Shown: positions 54,127-57,277, numbered from the stretch's first letter. The stretch: 64,000 bases of DNA from Candidatus Levybacteria bacterium RIFCSPLOWO2_12_FULL_41_12 (GCA_001784155.1 MFPL01000002.1:34012-98011), one strand, 5' to 3'. Notes: generated from the sequence alone by a model not told the origin. Program-made: numbers and translations.

Positions 54127-54588
54127 TCATTTAAGCACTTCAACCCTCCCCACATCCATGAGCCAGCCTGCATATTGGGCTTTTTGGGTTTGACCCCATA
54201 TTTTAATTTTTTTACCCTCAAATAAAGATAGGTCAACAATTGACGAGGTTAGATAAACATTCTGGCTTTCTCCACCGGGTCTCACTAGGTGATACTGGCC
54301 TTCTCCTTCAATGCCTCCCTTCTTTAGCTCTCCCTCTACTTCGTCACTAAATGTTTTTTTGTCATTTGAGCCGAAGGATTTCCCCGCAGTGACCGAAGAT
54401 GCATCTTTAGGCTGATCTACACTGCCACCGGATGATCTGCTAAAAATAAATCCTGTGCCGATTCCAAACGCTACGATAATCAGGTAAATTGCGGCTATCT
54501 TAGGAGATAGAGAAAGTTTTGTTTTCTTATTCTCAAAATCATGAACCAATGAACTGTCTTGGGAATTTTTTGAATCCGTAAAAATCAC
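54127..54588 (-). CDS. Membrane-anchored hypothetical protein
   Basis: N-terminal TM helix then a Ser/Gly-rich linker and a ~60-aa C-terminal domain. Confidence 0.4.
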   Translation of the reverse strand: MIFTDSKNSQDSSLVHDFENKKTKLSLSPKIAAIYLIIVAFGIGTGFIFSRSSGGSVDQPKDASSVTAGKSFGSNDKKTFSDEVEGELKKGGIEGEGQYHLVRPGGESQNVYLTSSIVDLSLFEGKKIKIWGQTQKAQYAGWLMDVGRVEVLK

Positions 54589-54637: not shown

Positions 54638-55648
54638 TCAACCTTGAAGCAATTTTATTGCTTGGCCTGTTTTGTAACTTTTCGCGTGTTTTAAATAACC
54701 AAGATATGACTGGATAGTCTGATTTAGCGAAAAATCAGAGATTCTCCCTGTTTTGTATTCATCAAGCTTATCTGATATCTTTCTAAACATCCTTTTCTTT
54801 GTTTTTGTTCTTGGCAAAACGTAGTGGGGAAGTATGACGTAACCTAAAAAATCAACTCCCCATGAAAGTCTTCTCATAATAATCTTGCCTGGATTAAGTC
54901 TCAGCTTAAGATTTTCTTCCAAGAAGACTGGTATACTAGTATACCAGTCTAATAATCTACTCCTATTGGATTCTAAAATTAAAAAGTCATCAGCGTAACG
55001 CAGGTAATATTTCACTCTTAGACTCTGCTTTATAAATTGGTCCAGTTCGTTTAAGTAAATATTTGCAAAAATCTGACTTGTCAGATTGCCAAGAGGAATT
55101 CCTTTCCCTCTTCCTTGTTCCACGCTAAAACTTTGAATAACTTCTTTTAAAAGCCAGAGAATATCTTCATCTTCTATTCTCTTTTTTAGAAGTTCGAACA
55201 AAATCTTATGATCAACATTTGCAAAGAATTTTTTAATATCAAGTTTTAGAGCAAAGCAGTTTCTTGTATAATTCTTGCTCACTTTTCTCGCAAATAACTC
55301 AAGCCTTTCAACTCCTTTATGCGTTCCTTTATCTAAACGACAAGAATATGAATCATAAATAAAACTTTTATCAAAGACAGAATATAAATATTTATATAAA
55401 AGGTGATGTAAAACCCTATCCGAAACACAGGCTTTATGGATGTGCCGTCTTTTCGGATCGTTAACGAAGAATTCCTCGTATTTTCCATGTTGGTAAGTTT
55501 TGTTTTTCAAAGACAAGTGCAGAGAGAACAAATTGTCTTCCAAATTCCGCTCGAAAACTTGTAAATCCAATCTCTTCTTCTTTCCTTTTTTAAATTCAGA
55601 AAAGGCTTGAAAAAGATTTTCTATTTGTATAAGATCTTCATAGTTCAT
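54638..55648 (-). CDS. DGR-type reverse transcriptase
   Basis: Start at ATG 55648 (MNYEDLIQ...). Motifs DSYSCRLDKGTHKG (DGR-like SxxxRxxKGTH), GIPLGNLTSQIFANIYLNELD (LGNLTSQ replaces the usual QG...SP, a DGR hallmark), and YADDFLIL (YxDD). The listed 373-aa ORF start is an artefact of reading through the upstream (CA)n tract. Confidence 0.9.
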   Translation of the reverse strand: MNYEDLIQIENLFQAFSEFKKGKKKRLDLQVFERNLEDNLFSLHLSLKNKTYQHGKYEEFFVNDPKRRHIHKACVSDRVLHHLLYKYLYSVFDKSFIYDSYSCRLDKGTHKGVERLELFARKVSKNYTRNCFALKLDIKKFFANVDHKILFELLKKRIEDEDILWLLKEVIQSFSVEQGRGKGIPLGNLTSQIFANIYLNELDQFIKQSLRVKYYLRYADDFLILESNRSRLLDWYTSIPVFLEENLKLRLNPGKIIMRRLSWGVDFLGYVILPHYVLPRTKTKKRMFRKISDKLDEYKTGRISDFSLNQTIQSYLGYLKHAKSYKTGQAIKLLQG

Positions 55649-55672
55649 ATGAGTAACATCAATAAACCTGTT

Positions 55673-55698
55673 CACACACACACACATACACACACACC
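55673..55698. repeat. Dinucleotide microsatellite (CA)7-TA-(CA)5, 25 nt upstream of the RT start
   Basis: Direct reading: cacacacacacacatacacacacacc. It lies between TR and RT, flanked by the GC-rich inverted repeat GCCCGCC...GGCGGGC at 55711-55747. Confidence 0.8.
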
Positions 55699-55737
55699 GA
55701 TAGTAATTTAGCCCGCCTGCCAGCACCTGACCGCAGG

Positions 55738-56088
55738 GATGGCGGGCAGGATATCCCAATCTTTACCAAGCTCTACGAATTTTATAAAACGCTTAGCTCA
55801 ATTATTCCATCTTTCCCTAAGACAAAACGCTACACGCTAGGTCAAAAGTTGGATAACACAACCTTGGACATACTCGAATTCTTGTTTGCAATACCGTTAA
55901 GCAGTAATAAGCTGATTATCCTTCAAAAAATAAGCGTAAAAGTCGATTTATTAAAAATTCTAATCCGTCTCTCTAAAGACACCCAGATAATTAATAACAA
56001 AGACTGCTTAGAGCTTGAAACAAAACTTTCTGAAATAGGCAAAATGCTTGGAGGATGGATCAGAGCCTCCAAGCAAAATACCACTTAA
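55738..56088 (+). CDS. Avd-like (accessory variability determinant, four-helix-bundle) protein encoded antisense to the DGR, with no canonical in-frame start
   Basis: C-terminus LSEIGKMLGGWIRASKQ closely parallels BPP-1 Avd's AEVGRILGSWIARVNRK. Upstream block IPSFPKTKRYTLGQKL resembles the PF05635-family N-terminal region. The open frame extends to 55738 with no ATG/GTG. The nearest ATG (55739) is in a different frame, and the track's TTG at 55849 would truncate the fold. Confidence 0.55.
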   Translation, partial: DGGQDIPIFTKLYEFYKTLSSIIPSFPKTKRYTLGQKLDNTTLDILEFLFAIPLSSNKLIILQKISVKVDLLKILIRLSKDTQIINNKDCLELETKLSEIGKMLGGWIRASKQNTT

Positions 56089-56104
56089 AAAACTTCTTCT
56101 ACTA

Positions 56105-56220
56105 GAAACTATCAAGCGAACCGCATGAACATTGTCATTGCCGTTATCAGGCTTAAAGTCATTGACATTCAAACCGTTATCGGGATTCGCATTGCCGACA
56201 ATCGCAGCATTAGAACCCAC
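56105..56220 (-). repeat. DGR template repeat (TR)
   Basis: Core 56113-56217 matches VR 56547-56651 at 85/105 positions. TR coding (minus) strand is adenine-rich with AAC codons (translates GSNAAIVGNANPDNGLNVNDFKPDNGNDNVHAVRLIV). Shared 3' IMH-like end GCGGTTCGCTTG. Confidence 0.88.
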
Positions 56221-56519
56221 ATTTTGTGCATATCCCTTCGTTAACAGAACCTCACCAAAGATTTCTGTAAAGATCTCTTTTGAATTTTATCCGTCTCGCC
56301 AAAAACGGCGGAGCGAAAAAAGATATACGTAGTGTCTAGTAAATTTTTCTTTAAGTACTCTCCCTCACTATGTATAGTGAGGGACTCTGACTATTGAAAG
56401 ATCCTAGAAATAGGCGGTACGGCTTAAATCAAACCGGACTCATTGCGCTATTGCGAATAATTGTAGCAAAAAAATCGGAGAACCAAAATACAAGAAGTCC
56501 AAAATTACCAAGAGGACAA

Positions 56520-57248
56520 CTACTTATTTCCGTGGTTAGGCACTACCAAGCGAACCGCAAGAACACCGCCACCGCCGCCACCAGGCCCAAAGCCACGGAC
56601 ATCCAAACCGTCATCGGGATGCGCACGGCCGACAACCGCAGCATTAGAACCGGATTTAGTCGTTGGATTTTTTGTTCTTCCGTACCGATAGCCGTAATCT
56701 GGTCCAAATAACCATTCTCCTGTTTGATCTAAATAGTCAAAAGTAATTCCTGTAAGAGTCGATGCCTCGTTTGGAATTCTAACATCTACTCCAGATAATC
56801 CTAATCTTTCTCTTAAAGTCTCTCCGTCTCTACTGACCATCCTCTCCTGCGTAGCTAAATCTTTACCGCCTGTGCCGGGAATAAAGAATCTGTCCGGATC
56901 GGGATAAATTGCTACTTCAGCAAGACTTGAAGGGACATTAAGAAGTCCGTCTTCCGCATTAGCAACAAAATAAAACGAGGGTTTTTCTTTTTGTCTTTGG
57001 GCTTCTCTTTGTGAGGGAATAGTCTGATCGAGGGGCTTTAAAATAATTGCCCCGTCTTTTGATAAAGCGCGCTTTTCTACGGCAGTAAACTTATCGGCTT
57101 TCCCAACCTGTTCACGTCTTGGAAGAGGGACATCTTTCCCTCTAGCTTTATGCATTGCAGCAATTACATCCGCTCTTTCTGCGTCGCGGGGATCGTTTGT
57201 TACTCTAAGTTTTCTTTCGACCCATTCCATTCCCATATGAACGAACAA
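56520..57248 (-). CDS. DGR target protein (variable C-terminal ligand-binding domain, probable C-type-lectin/FGE-like fold)
   Basis: C-terminus ...GSNAAVVGRAHPDDGLDVRGFGPGGGGGGVLAVRLVVPNHGNK is the VR-encoded region. It ends with the xVRLVx-like segment typical of CLec-fold DGR targets. No obvious signal peptide. Confidence 0.8.
   Translation of the reverse strand: MFVHMGMEWVERKLRVTNDPRDAERADVIAAMHKARGKDVPLPRREQVGKADKFTAVEKRALSKDGAIILKPLDQTIPSQREAQRQKEKPSFYFVANAEDGLLNVPSSLAEVAIYPDPDRFFIPGTGGKDLATQERMVSRDGETLRERLGLSGVDVRIPNEASTLTGITFDYLDQTGEWLFGPDYGYRYGRTKNPTTKSGSNAAVVGRAHPDDGLDVRGFGPGGGGGGVLAVRLVVPNHGNK
56540..56655 (-). repeat. DGR variable repeat (VR) at the 3' end of the target gene
   Basis: Of the 20 mismatches to TR, 16 are A-to-G, 3 are A-to-C and 1 is A-to-T on the coding strand. 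Six TR adenines are unchanged. No non-adenine position differs within the 105-bp core. Confidence 0.88.
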
Positions 57249-57277
57249 TATATCAGACTATAGGGCGTTTGTCAAGT

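What the first reader, a model, noticed from the sequence alone, without database searches (positions are those of the whole stretch)
54638..57248. Complete diversity-generating retroelement with textbook adenine-specific TR-to-VR divergence
Two ~115 bp repeats lie 434 bp apart on the same (minus) strand, at 56105-56220 and 56540-56655. Over the 105-bp core they differ at 20 positions. Every difference is where the TR coding strand has an adenine: 16 A-to-G, 3 A-to-C, 1 A-to-T. Six TR adenines are unchanged and no other base differs. The TR translates to an Asn-rich peptide built on AAC codons (GSNAAIVGNANPDNGLNVNDFKPDNGNDN...). The VR forms the C-terminus of a 242-aa gene (...GSNAAVVGRAHPDDGLDVRGFGPGGGGGG...). 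Both repeats end in the same GCGGTTCGCTTG IMH-like sequence. The adjacent reverse transcriptase carries LGNLTSQ in place of the usual QG...SP and an SxxxRxxKGTH motif, both DGR hallmarks. Together this indicates an active or recently active targeted protein-hypermutation system, a type known to be enriched in small-genome CPR-like bacteria.
Basis: seen in the sequence. Interest (0 to 1): 0.85.

Follow-up and report, generated by a model that had tools for sequence, protein, structure and literature searches.

The report
Protein-hypermutating retroelement with repeat-tract switch
This is a genuine diversity-generating retroelement of the layout typical for CPR bacteria (here a Levybacterium) that rewrites the tip of a lectin-fold protein.

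Summary
TR (56108-56217) and VR (56542-56651), both on the minus strand, differ at 21 of 110 positions, and every difference sits at a TR adenine (P about 6e-17). The RT is DGR-type, and the target models as an FGE/C-type-lectin fold with the VR at its C-terminus. Near-identical strains from other metagenomes carry 13 different VR peptides that vary only at A-containing TR codons, so the element has been active in nature.

The layout, VR-TR-(avd reversed)-RT, is the published "B3" architecture that holds 90% of CPR DGRs. The DGR itself is therefore a known kind.

Two parts appear to be new:
1. avd (plus strand, 55649-56088) starts back to back with the RT and carries a (CA)n tract at 55673-55697. 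This is the only simple repeat in the 64-kb window. Here (CA)7 puts avd out of frame, while otherwise almost identical contigs carry (CA)6 or (CA)9 and are in frame. Related CPR DGRs have (CA)n, poly-C, tetra- or pentanucleotide tracts at the same spot, or (AG)n/poly-G inside the RT.
2. About 215 nt directly upstream of the TR form a covariation-supported structured RNA. It resembles Rfam RT-16 below threshold.

The switch function is inferred, not shown.

The parts
56520..57236 (-). Target (variable protein) gene, 238 aa from ATG 57236. The ORF listing extends it to TTG 57248, giving 242 aa. No Pfam domain. Residues from about 55 to 240 model as an FGE/C-type-lectin fold.
   Evidence: (27 homologs, all 238-aa cluster members start MGMEWV)
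57247..57275 (-). Sigma-70-like promoter match (TTGACA-17-TATATT, 11 of 12) just upstream of the target start. This is a consensus match only.
56542..56651 (-). Variable repeat (VR), encoding the last ~37 codons of the target. The mutable part is 56559-56651. The IMH-like GCGGTTCGCTTG lies at 56547-56558.
56228..56444 (-). Structured RNA domain directly 5' of the TR. It has three covarying hairpins (56439-35/56421-17; 56392-90 plus 56384-75 with 56370-61 plus 56356-54; 56280-76/56261-57). It has a local hairpin at 56315-56291 and a long-range closing stem (56329-17 with 56238-28). Conserved blocks are UUACUAGACACUACG (56342-28), GAUAAAAUUCAA (56291-80) and GGUGAGG (56256-50). A conserved TAnAAT box (56465-56460) lies ~12 nt upstream. 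The 3' half resembles Rfam RT-16 below threshold.
56108..56217 (-). Template repeat (TR), Asn/Asp-codon rich, with 28 adenines, all at codon positions 1 or 2. The IMH*-like GCGGTTCGCTTG lies at 56113-56124. Position 56112 (A in TR, G in every VR allele seen) marks the fixed TR/VR difference.
56046..56074 (-). Hairpin GCUUGGAGG-11 nt-CCUCCAAGC followed by AUUUUG, 34 nt after the TR and inside the 3' end of avd (antisense). It is a possible 3' end or handle of the TR RNA.
   Evidence: kept 8-9 of 9 pairs in a 12-locus subclade; U-G pairs favour the TR-sense strand
55649..56088 (+). avd (accessory variability determinant), on the strand opposite to TR, VR and RT. As assembled, ATG 55649 reads MSNINKPVHTHTHTHTPIVI and stops at 55709-55711. 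The Avd frame (open from 55664, homology from DIPIF at 55750 to stop 56086-56088) has no start codon. One CA unit fewer, or two more, gives an intact Avd of 145 or 147 aa.
55673..55697 (+). Simple sequence repeat (CA)7-TA-(CA)5 in the 5' coding part of avd. On the other strand it is (UG)n, 25-50 nt upstream of the RT start codon. It is the only such repeat in the 64-kb window. Alleles (CA)6, (CA)7 and (CA)9 occur in the same species.
54638..55648 (-). DGR reverse transcriptase, 336 aa. Its ATG (55648-55646) abuts the avd ATG (55649-55651), forming CATATG. Motifs: KRR (bRT R74 equivalent), SCRLDKGTH, IPLGNLTSQ and YADD.

Best explanation
The locus is a chromosomal diversity-generating retroelement of the CPR-specific 'B3' layout: target/VR, then TR, then avd on the reverse strand, then RT. 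It sits in a Candidatus Levybacteria genome between prfB and ftsEX.

Proposed mechanism, by analogy with the Bordetella phage DGR (inferred, not shown here):
1. An RNA containing the TR is copied by the RT-Avd complex.
2. Template adenines are miscopied.
3. The cDNA replaces the VR up to the shared GCGGTTCGCTTG.
4. This recodes up to 16 residues on a C-type-lectin-fold surface of a 238-aa protein of unknown ligand.

That recoding has happened repeatedly in this species is shown directly by the VR alleles.

Two additions are inferred from comparative data. First, the TR RNA probably starts at a conserved TAnAAT box near 56460 and carries a ~215-nt covarying 5' domain related to the RT-16 motif. 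It probably ends at a hairpin inside the antisense 3' end of avd. Second, avd translation depends on the length of a (CA)n tract between its ATG and the conserved Avd core. Slipped-strand length changes move avd in and out of frame and so switch mutagenesis on or off heritably and reversibly. The window carries an OFF allele, (CA)7.

My probabilities: that the locus is a DGR, about 0.97. That the tract acts as a DNA-level ON/OFF switch of Avd, about 0.6. That the 5' domain is part of the functional template RNA, about 0.7.
For: **DGR identity**
- 21 of 21 TR/VR mismatches are at TR adenines.
- The RT is closest to the bRT-like PDB chain 8ub7_A (143 bits against 70 or less for group II RTs) and to phrog_1423 (368 bits).
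- Avd matches Pfam bAvd above its cut-off, the NCBIfam DGR Avd model, and phrog 'Avd protein of DGR'.
- The target has a CLec/FGE fold.

**Activity in nature**
- Over 7.2 kb, contig L005 differs from the window by 2 SNPs, one CA unit and 16 VR substitutions, all 16 at TR-A positions.
- Thirteen VR peptides occur among near-identical strains. All 16 A-containing codons vary and none of the 19 A-free codons does.
- The layout equals published B3, which holds 90% of CPR DGRs. It recurs in about 65 of 80 related loci, each with a TR/VR pair with almost only TR-adenine mismatches.

**Switch**
- P0042 is the window's Avd read through a tract one CA unit shorter.
- Twelve contigs of this species, whose shared sequence is near-identical, carry (CA)6 (in frame, 3 contigs), (CA)7 (out of frame, 6 including the window) or (CA)9 (in frame, 3). 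Six of them share one VR allele yet show all three tract lengths.
- The tract is the only simple repeat in 64 kb.
- In 386 kb of related loci, 29 of 47 repeats lie within 130 nt upstream of the Avd core and 12 more lie inside RT genes.
- Units are 1, 2, 4 or 5 nt, never 3 or 6.
- Repeat-free loci all but one have an in-frame ATG. Out-of-frame repeat loci have no alternative start.

**RNA**
- 23 of 23 predicted pairs show compensatory changes. 94% of cells pair, against 60% when shuffled and 39-46% when slid.
- The closing stem is specific to each locus's own partner.
Against: - No reads were available, so within-population switching, reversibility and rate are untested.
- Across lineages only about one third of repeat-bearing loci are in frame (5 in-frame, 13 out-of-frame, 1 polymorphic). 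That is the chance expectation. It would also fit a tract that is not translated at all, or simple recurrent inactivation.
- Four poly-C loci all carry C10 and are out of frame for both candidate starts. This hints at transcriptional slippage or another recoding route rather than DNA switching.
- The tract also lies in the RT 5' leader, so its length could act on the RT instead.
- Dependence on Avd is known experimentally only for the Bordetella phage element.
- No experiment exists for any CPR DGR. Transcript ends, the priming site and the role of the 5' domain are all inferred.
- The RT-16 match is below Rfam's gathering score (28.6 against 50 bits).
Confidence: 0.85

Rival explanations
1. 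The avd frameshift is an assembly or sequencing error, or a plain inactivating mutation. On this reading the tract has no switching role, and this copy of the DGR is simply intact or simply dead.
For: Repeats are error-prone in short-read assemblies. The in-frame fraction across lineages is no better than chance. L001, L098 and L099 all show the same out-of-frame tract.
Against: - The (CA)7 allele is found in six contigs that come from different samples and assemblers. The (CA)6 and (CA)9 alleles are each found in three.
- Dinucleotide tracts of 6-9 units are not a typical Illumina error site.
- Apart from the repeat, the avd and RT reading frames are undamaged in all out-of-frame loci.
- Different repeat types recur at the same two sites in genomes otherwise devoid of such repeats.
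Confidence: 0.15
2. The repeat is not a DNA-level translational switch of avd. It is an expression element instead. It could be a (UG)n or poly-G leader that tunes RT translation or RNA stability. It could be a site of transcriptional or ribosomal slippage that yields a set fraction of in-frame Avd from any allele.
For: - The tract lies 25-50 nt upstream of the RT start codon on the RT strand.
- The poly-C loci are all C10 and out of frame.
- The DNA after the tract (CCGATAGTAAYTT) is conserved and is read in two different frames in different homologs, TDSNL or TPIV. Its conservation is therefore not at the peptide level.
Against: - Repeats as unlike as (CA)n, poly-C, (CAGA)n and (ACAGG)n share no RNA property except a unit length not divisible by 3.
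- In the sister clade the repeats sit in the middle of the RT coding sequence and split it into two frames, where no leader function is possible.
- In-frame alleles form a clean ATG-repeat-Avd ORF.
Confidence: 0.2
3. The two repeats are an ordinary duplication or gene-conversion remnant, and the RT belongs to a group II intron, retron, Abi or Drt system unrelated to them.
For: The RT matches many RT models at low score.
Against: - 21 of 21 differences at adenines has a probability of 6e-17.
- VR alleles among strains vary only at A codons.
- All non-DGR RT models are far below their cut-offs.
- An Avd gene is present.
- No intron RNA domains or retron msr/msd were found by Rfam.
Confidence: 0.01

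Closest known systems
CPR/Patescibacteria DGRs of architecture B3, TR-(avd)-RT (Wu et al. 2018, PMC5758913; DGR clade 2 of Roux et al. 2021, PMC8144416; Paul et al. 2017, recalled from memory and not held in the library)
   Same: The gene order and strands are the same, with a reversed avd between TR and RT. The VR is about 110 nt at the 3' end of a small target that has no recognisable Pfam domain. The host group (groundwater CPR) matches, and the bias to adenines is strict.
   Different: Nothing differs at the level of architecture, so this is a member. The papers I could read do not mention repeat tracts in avd or RT, or a structured RNA 5' of the TR. I could not read Paul et al. 2017.
Bordetella phage BPP-1 DGR (mtd-avd-TR-brt), the studied prototype
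   Different: - avd is on the opposite strand, downstream of the TR.
- The TR-RT interval is antisense avd rather than a dedicated ~140-nt spacer RNA (Rfam RT-10).
- The conserved structured RNA lies upstream of the TR.
- The element is chromosomal, not phage-borne.
- No GC-rich cruciform was seen directly after the VR.
Simple-sequence contingency loci (phase-variable genes of Neisseria, Haemophilus, Campylobacter; recently also phages, PMC12633550)
   Same: The repeat sits in the 5' coding region and its unit length is not a multiple of 3. Length alleles among near-identical strains put the ORF in or out of frame. The repeat is rare elsewhere in the genome.
   Different: The gene controlled is not a surface antigen or restriction-modification enzyme. 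It is a component of a mutagenesis machine. The host is a CPR bacterium. Switching rate and reversibility are untested.
Rfam RF03019 RT-16 RNA and the other 'RT motifs' of Weinberg et al. 2017 (PMC5737381)
   Same: The two share the core AUAAAAUaCAg-hairpin-GGUGa enclosed by a long closing stem, and both lie next to an RT gene. The authors speculated that some RT motifs belong to DGRs.
   Different: The score is 28.6 bits against a gathering score of 50. The inner long-range stem of RT-16 is replaced here by a local hairpin. None of 20 related loci reaches the threshold. Two further covarying hairpins lie upstream.
DGR variable proteins with FGE-type C-type-lectin folds (TvpA 2y3c, TaqVP 5vf4, Mtd 1yu0)
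   Different: There is no detectable sequence similarity. The family is small, with 27 homologs, all from CPR-type metagenomes. It has no signal peptide or membrane segment obvious from the sequence. Some homologs have no DGR nearby.

Membership tests
Diversity-generating retroelement (DGR) | A TR/VR repeat pair whose differences are confined to TR adenines | tested here: met
   21 of 21 differences are at TR adenines, P 6e-17.
Diversity-generating retroelement (DGR) | A reverse transcriptase of the DGR clade, with [I/L/V]GxxxSQ in motif 4 and closest to bRT rather than to group II, retron or Abi RTs | tested here: met
   The motif is IPLGNLTSQ. PDB 8ub7_A scores 143 bits against 70 or less for group II RTs. 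phrog_1423 scores 368 bits. The group II, retron, Abi and Drt NCBIfam models are all below their cut-offs. No phylogenetic tree was built.
Diversity-generating retroelement (DGR) | The VR lies at the 3' end of a protein-coding target, with TR adenines at codon positions 1 and 2 | tested here: met
   The VR encodes target residues 200-236 of 242. Adenines occur only at positions 1 (11 of them) and 2 (15).
Diversity-generating retroelement (DGR) | A variable region displayed on a C-type-lectin (or Ig) fold | tested here: met
Diversity-generating retroelement (DGR) | IMH/IMH* boundary elements at the 3' ends of VR and TR | tested here: inconclusive
   GCGGTTCGCTTG is shared. Next to it is one difference (56112: A in TR, G in VR) that is fixed in all 9 VR alleles. 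Function is inferred by analogy only.
Diversity-generating retroelement (DGR) | An accessory gene (avd) that is present and intact | tested here: inconclusive
   avd is present (Pfam bAvd 41.6 bits against a cut-off of 40; phrog 'Avd protein of DGR'). It is out of frame with its only start codon in this genome. It is intact in sister contigs.
Diversity-generating retroelement (DGR) | Evidence of diversification in natural populations | tested here: met
   Thirteen VR peptides occur in near-identical strains, and variation is only at A codons. One contig has N calls at TR-A positions.
CPR DGR architecture B3 (Wu et al. 2018) | The order TR, then avd on the reverse strand, then RT | tested here: met
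   TR is at 56108-56217 (-), avd at 55649-56088 (+) and RT at 54638-55648 (-).
Simple-sequence contingency (phase-variable) locus | A repeat tract whose unit is not a multiple of 3, lying between the start codon and the conserved part of the ORF | tested here: met
   (CA)7-TA-(CA)5 lies at 55673-55697, between ATG 55649 and the Avd core at 55750.
Simple-sequence contingency (phase-variable) locus | Tract-length alleles among otherwise near-identical genomes that put the ORF in and out of frame | tested here: met
   (CA)6 is in frame, (CA)7 is out of frame and (CA)9 is in frame. They occur in 12 contigs whose shared sequence is near-identical.
Simple-sequence contingency (phase-variable) locus | High-frequency, reversible switching within a clonal population, with a matching change in phenotype | not testable with these tools
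   This needs read-level data or culture. CPR bacteria are uncultured.
Rfam RF03019 RT-16 RNA | A score at or above the family's gathering threshold (50 bits) | tested here: not met
   The score is 28.6 bits, E 0.02, at 56228-56330 (-). None of the 20 related loci searched scores above threshold. The element resembles RT-16 but is not filed as a member.

The most novel reading that the evidence does not exclude
In CPR bacteria the DGR hypermutation machine is itself placed under hypermutable control. Simple repeats at the 5' end of avd, or inside the RT gene, make mutagenesis a stochastic, heritable ON/OFF trait. This gives a two-tier evolvability system and would explain alternating bursts and stasis of VR diversification. 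In addition, the template RNA of these elements carries a previously unassigned RT-16-like structured 5' domain in place of the 3' spacer RNA of the phage prototype.
Probability: 0.5. Interest if true: 0.8.

Novelty: new variant of a known kind. Interest (0 to 1): 0.6.

Why it matters
How DGR mutagenesis is regulated in nature is largely open. Surveys report active and inactive elements and alternating phases of diversification and selection, but no switch.

A repeat-tract frameshift switch in avd or the RT would supply one. It could be read directly from metagenomic reads, by asking whether tract length modulo 3 tracks VR heterogeneity. It would also extend contingency loci to CPR bacteria and to a gene class, mutagenesis machinery, where they have not been described in the literature I could search.

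The covarying 5' RNA domain gives a concrete candidate for the RT/Avd-binding and priming RNA of the most abundant DGR clade. It also suggests a function for an orphan Rfam motif. If the switch idea fails, the locus is still a clean, well-documented but ordinary CPR DGR.

Tried and rejected
- The search for related loci with the full 28-sequence target alignment failed because no stretch was conserved enough. A 9-sequence alignment worked.
- PDB sequence searches with Avd and with the target found nothing useful.
- Pfam and NCBIfam give no domain for the target.
- Rfam at gathering threshold finds only two tRNAs in the window and nothing DGR-related in 20 related loci.
- RNAalifold on the region 3' of the TR across 20 loci gave no consensus structure. 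The hairpin there holds only in a 12-locus subclade.
- The sigma-70 and terminator scans were no richer than shuffles, and I use them only as hints.
- PADLOC assigns only a generic RT and no defence system.
- I looked for a second species with tract polymorphism. P0004 gave three contigs with the same out-of-frame tract. P0017 turned out to be a target homolog with no DGR nearby.
- I considered a start at ATG 55740, but it is out of frame and ends after 33 codons.
- I considered non-canonical starts after the tract. No consistent candidate appears across loci.
- Paul et al. 2017 and the supplements of Wu et al. 2018 are not held. I therefore could not check whether this exact locus or the repeats are mentioned there.
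- Four literature searches for DGR together with phase variation, simple repeats or slippage found nothing relevant.
Full report
**1.

The repeat finder reports a single long direct repeat in the region, 56103-56217 and 56537-56651, spaced 434 nt apart. Read on the minus strand in exact register (56217..56108 against 56651..56542, 110 nt), the copies differ at 21 positions. Every one is an adenine in the downstream copy: 17 A>G, 3 A>C and 1 A>T. Seven adenines are unchanged and no other base differs.

With 28 adenines in 110 nt, the probability that 21 random differences all fall on adenines is 6e-17. The TR adenines occupy only first and second codon positions. The peptides, the shared GCGGTTCGCTTG, the 242-aa ORF ending in the VR and the RT motifs are all as described. 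No further copy of the repeat occurs in the window.

**2. What the genes are**

- **RT (54638-55648, minus, 336 aa).** It matches Pfam RVT_1. Its best solved relative by far is 8ub7_A, a 328-aa reverse transcriptase that I recognise from its sequence and length as the Bordetella phage bRT (my own knowledge, not a tool result). That match scores 143 bits, against 70 or less for group II intron RTs and lower still for retron and Drt RTs. The alignment conserves the residue aligned with bRT R74 and the I/L-G-xxx-SQ motif. The RT scores 368 bits over its full length against the phage RT family phrog_1423. It fails the curated cut-offs of the group II, retron, Abi and Drt models.
- **avd (plus strand, between TR and RT).** The ORF listed at 55849-56088 matches Pfam bAvd above its cut-off and the NCBIfam DGR Avd model, but only over model positions 33-104. 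The reading frame is open back to 55664 and encodes the conserved Avd N-terminus (DIPIFTKLYEFY...) from 55750. It contains no ATG, GTG or TTG before 55849.

**3. The element has been active in nature**

The target belongs to a 90%-identity cluster of 22 sequences from Candidatus Levybacteria genomes and groundwater metagenomes. One member, OGH52961.1, is identical to the window's protein. Levybacteria belong to the Microgenomates group of the Patescibacteria, that is, the CPR.

The 238-aa members are identical over residues 1-196, apart from single substitutions in two of them. They differ at 11-14 positions inside the VR. A syntenic 7.2-kb contig, L005, differs from the window by two SNPs in ftsE, one CA dinucleotide, and 16 substitutions in the VR. 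All 16 are at TR-adenine positions.

Across the 13 distinct VR peptides, all 16 adenine-containing TR codons vary and none of the 19 adenine-free codons does (P 2.5e-10). The TR itself is invariant among the contigs that carry it whole. Position 56112 (A in TR, G in VR) is the same in every VR allele. It therefore looks like a fixed TR/VR distinction next to the IMH-like sequence rather than a mutagenesis product. One contig has N calls exactly at TR-adenine positions of its VR, a hint of heterogeneity within a sample.

**4. Comparison with what is known**

Wu et al. 2018 classify DGR cassettes and define architecture B3 as TR-(avd)-RT with avd on the reverse strand. [quoted passage not shown] Roux et al. 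2021 describe a Patescibacteria-restricted DGR clade whose targets lack recognisable domains.

The window fits these descriptions exactly. In 80 loci retrieved with an Avd profile, about 65 have the RT divergent from avd. Nearly every locus with enough flank has a 105-130-nt TR/VR pair 300-500 nt apart with almost only adenine mismatches. The DGR as such is therefore a member of a known kind. It comes from public genomes of the groundwater datasets used in those surveys, although I could not confirm that this locus is listed there.

**5. The repeat tract in avd**

The RT start (55648-55646) and an ATG on the plus strand (55649-55651) are back to back, forming CATATG. From that ATG the window reads MSNINKPVHTHTHTHTPIVI and then a stop. 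The Avd frame is offset by one base. Between the two lies (CA)7-TA-(CA)5 at 55673-55697.

The protein database holds a 145-aa Avd, P0042, that is 100% identical to the window's Avd core. It begins MSNINKPVHTHTYTHTDSNLARLP..., which is the window sequence with one CA unit fewer.

| Allele | Frame | Contigs |
|---|---|---|
| (CA)6 | in frame | L005-L007 |
| (CA)7 | out of frame | window, L008, L091-L094 |
| (CA)9 | in frame, 147-aa Avd | L088-L090 |

These twelve contigs come from different samples and assemblers, and their shared sequence is near-identical. Seven of them were retrieved through an identical RT protein. Six of them share the same VR allele yet show all three tract lengths, so the tract changes at least as fast as the VR turns over.

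The tract is the only homopolymer of 9 or more, dinucleotide repeat of 5 or more units, or tetra/pentanucleotide repeat of 4 or more units in the whole 64-kb window.

**6. The tract is not a peculiarity of this species**

In the related loci, 29 of the 47 simple repeats found in 386 kb fall in the 130 nt upstream of the Avd core. They are (CA)5-20 in about a dozen lineages, poly-C of 9-14 in about eight, (CAGA)4 once and (ACAGG)7 once. None has a 3- or 6-nt unit. Many database Avds of this clade begin with HTHTHT or PPP stretches.

Twelve of the remaining 18 repeats lie inside RT genes of loci whose avd is repeat-free. In nine loci (AG)8-17 or poly-G, encoding RERERE, sits in the loop just before GIPIGNLTSQ. 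In six of these nine the two halves of the RT are in different frames. A tenth locus carries the same repeat at the cut end of its contig. In two canonical-order loci the repeat lies in another loop.

All repeat-free loci but one have an ordinary in-frame ATG 3-15 codons before DIPIF. Out-of-frame repeat loci have no alternative ATG, GTG or TTG in the Avd frame. This is the anatomy of simple-sequence contingency loci. The literature I could search contains nothing that links such repeats to DGR genes. Paul et al. 2017 could not be read.

**7. Caveats on the switch**

- Across lineages only about one third of repeat-bearing loci are in frame (5 in-frame, 13 out-of-frame, 1 polymorphic). Free drift of tract length would give this result. 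It is also the chance expectation if the tract were irrelevant to translation.
- The complete poly-C loci are out of frame, and four of them carry C10. This suggests transcriptional slippage or another recoding route for that subgroup.
- The DNA just after the tract (CCGATAGTAAYTT) is conserved. It is read in two different frames in different homologs (TDSNL or TPIV), and it carries stop codons in both non-Avd frames. It may serve the RT on the other strand.
- The tract lies 25-50 nt upstream of the RT start codon, so an effect on RT expression cannot be excluded.
- Switching within a population, reversibility and any effect on mutagenesis are untested.
- I put the DNA-level ON/OFF interpretation at about 0.6.

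**8. The template RNA**

The 320-nt VR-TR interval is not a featureless spacer. An alignment of 16 loci gives 23 predicted base pairs in three hairpins, and every pair shows compensatory double changes. 94% of cells pair, against 60% after shuffling and 39-46% when partners are slid. The covariation score is 0.91 against 0.29. G-U pairs far outnumber A-C, which identifies the TR-sense (minus) strand as the RNA.

A further long-range stem of 11-13 bp joins the sequence after the invariant UUACUAGACACUACG to the 20 nt that end about 12 nt before the TR. Own-partner duplexes average -14.2 kcal/mol against -7.4 for partners from other loci. The own partner ranks first in 14 of 16 loci (permutation p 5e-5). 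Window coordinates are given under parts.

A conserved TAnAAT box about 12 nt upstream of the first conserved block (window 56465-56460) suggests a dedicated promoter (inference).

A relaxed Rfam scan matches 56228-56330 to RT-16 (RF03019) at 28.6 bits, below the gathering score of 50. The match shares the AUAAAAUaCAg-hairpin-GGUGa core and the closing stem. RT-16 is one of the 'RT motifs' of Weinberg et al. 2017. Those authors assigned RT-10 to the Bordetella phage DGR spacer and speculated that others serve DGRs. The AUAAAAUACAG block sits 58-135 nt upstream of the TR in most of the loci examined.

Downstream of the TR, a 9-bp hairpin (56074-56046) followed by AUUUUG lies inside the antisense 3' end of avd. 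It is kept in a 12-locus subclade, with U-G pairs that would be A-C mismatches on the avd strand. More distant loci have a GC-rich intergenic hairpin at the equivalent place.

I infer a TR RNA of about 410 nt made of a 5' structured domain, the TR and a 3' hairpin. This differs from the phage prototype, where the functional structure lies 3' of the TR.

**9. Verdict**

The locus is a chromosomal CPR DGR of the standard B3 type with a C-type-lectin-fold target, and there is direct comparative evidence of adenine-directed diversification.

In this particular genome avd is out of frame, so the element is most likely silent at present. The parts that go beyond the literature available to me are the repeat-tract control of avd, and of the RT in sister elements, and the covarying RT-16-like 5' RNA domain. 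Both are comparative inferences that metagenomic read mapping and a reconstituted system could test directly.

Noticed in passing
L037, L038, L061, L063, L072, L080 (out of frame); L055, L078, L046 (in frame); L059 1228-1238; L085 1318-1329: In sister CPR DGRs whose avd has no repeat, the RT gene itself carries (AG)8-17 or poly-G tracts. These encode RERERE or GGGG in surface loops, mostly just before GIPIGNLTSQ. In six loci the two RT halves are in different frames.
   Followed up: partly
L014, L024, L031, L053 (avd 5' end): Four poly-C loci all carry exactly C10 and are out of frame for both candidate start codons. This could mean transcriptional slippage rather than a DNA-level switch in this subgroup.
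   Followed up: no
window 55698-55711 (+) and the equivalent in L009, L011-L013, L015, L016, L036: The sequence right after the repeat tract (CCGATAGTAAYTT) is conserved at the DNA level. It is translated in two different frames in different Avd homologs (TDSNL or TPIV) and has stop codons in both non-Avd frames. On the RT strand it reads AAATTACTAT, which resembles a -10 box.
   Followed up: no
window 55711-55717 / 55741-55747 (+): A GC-rich inverted repeat (GCCCGCC ... GGCGGGC) lies within a 14-codon insertion (LARLPAPDRRDGGQ) in the Avd N-terminal extension. The insertion is shared with only one other homolog (P0045).
   Followed up: no
window 56470-56520 (-), just after the target stop codon: TTGG/CTTG motifs recur about every 10 nt in the first ~70 nt after the VR. 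The pattern is conserved across 18 loci (alignment). No GC-rich cruciform like that of the phage prototype is seen there.
   Followed up: no
L002, L003, L004; L095-L097: Some homologs of the target protein have no TR, avd or RT within 3-5 kb. One, for example, lies between a NUDIX gene and a UvrD/AddB-type helicase gene. The protein family therefore also exists outside DGR cassettes.
   Followed up: partly
L090 (JGI 3300002460, contig C687J35021_10000022), VR: The assembled VR contains N calls at three positions, all of them TR-adenine positions. This suggests VR heterogeneity within that sample.
   Followed up: no
L017 vs L039: Two closely related loci differ by three CA units, which keeps the same frame, and by a 1-nt indel outside the tract that changes the avd frame. 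Not every frame change in this region comes from the repeat.
   Followed up: no
window 54127-54588 (-): A 153-aa ORF with one predicted membrane segment and a strong AGGAGG site follows the RT directly and precedes ftsE. It is syntenic in all contigs of this species. It has no family match, and no link to the DGR was tested.
   Followed up: no
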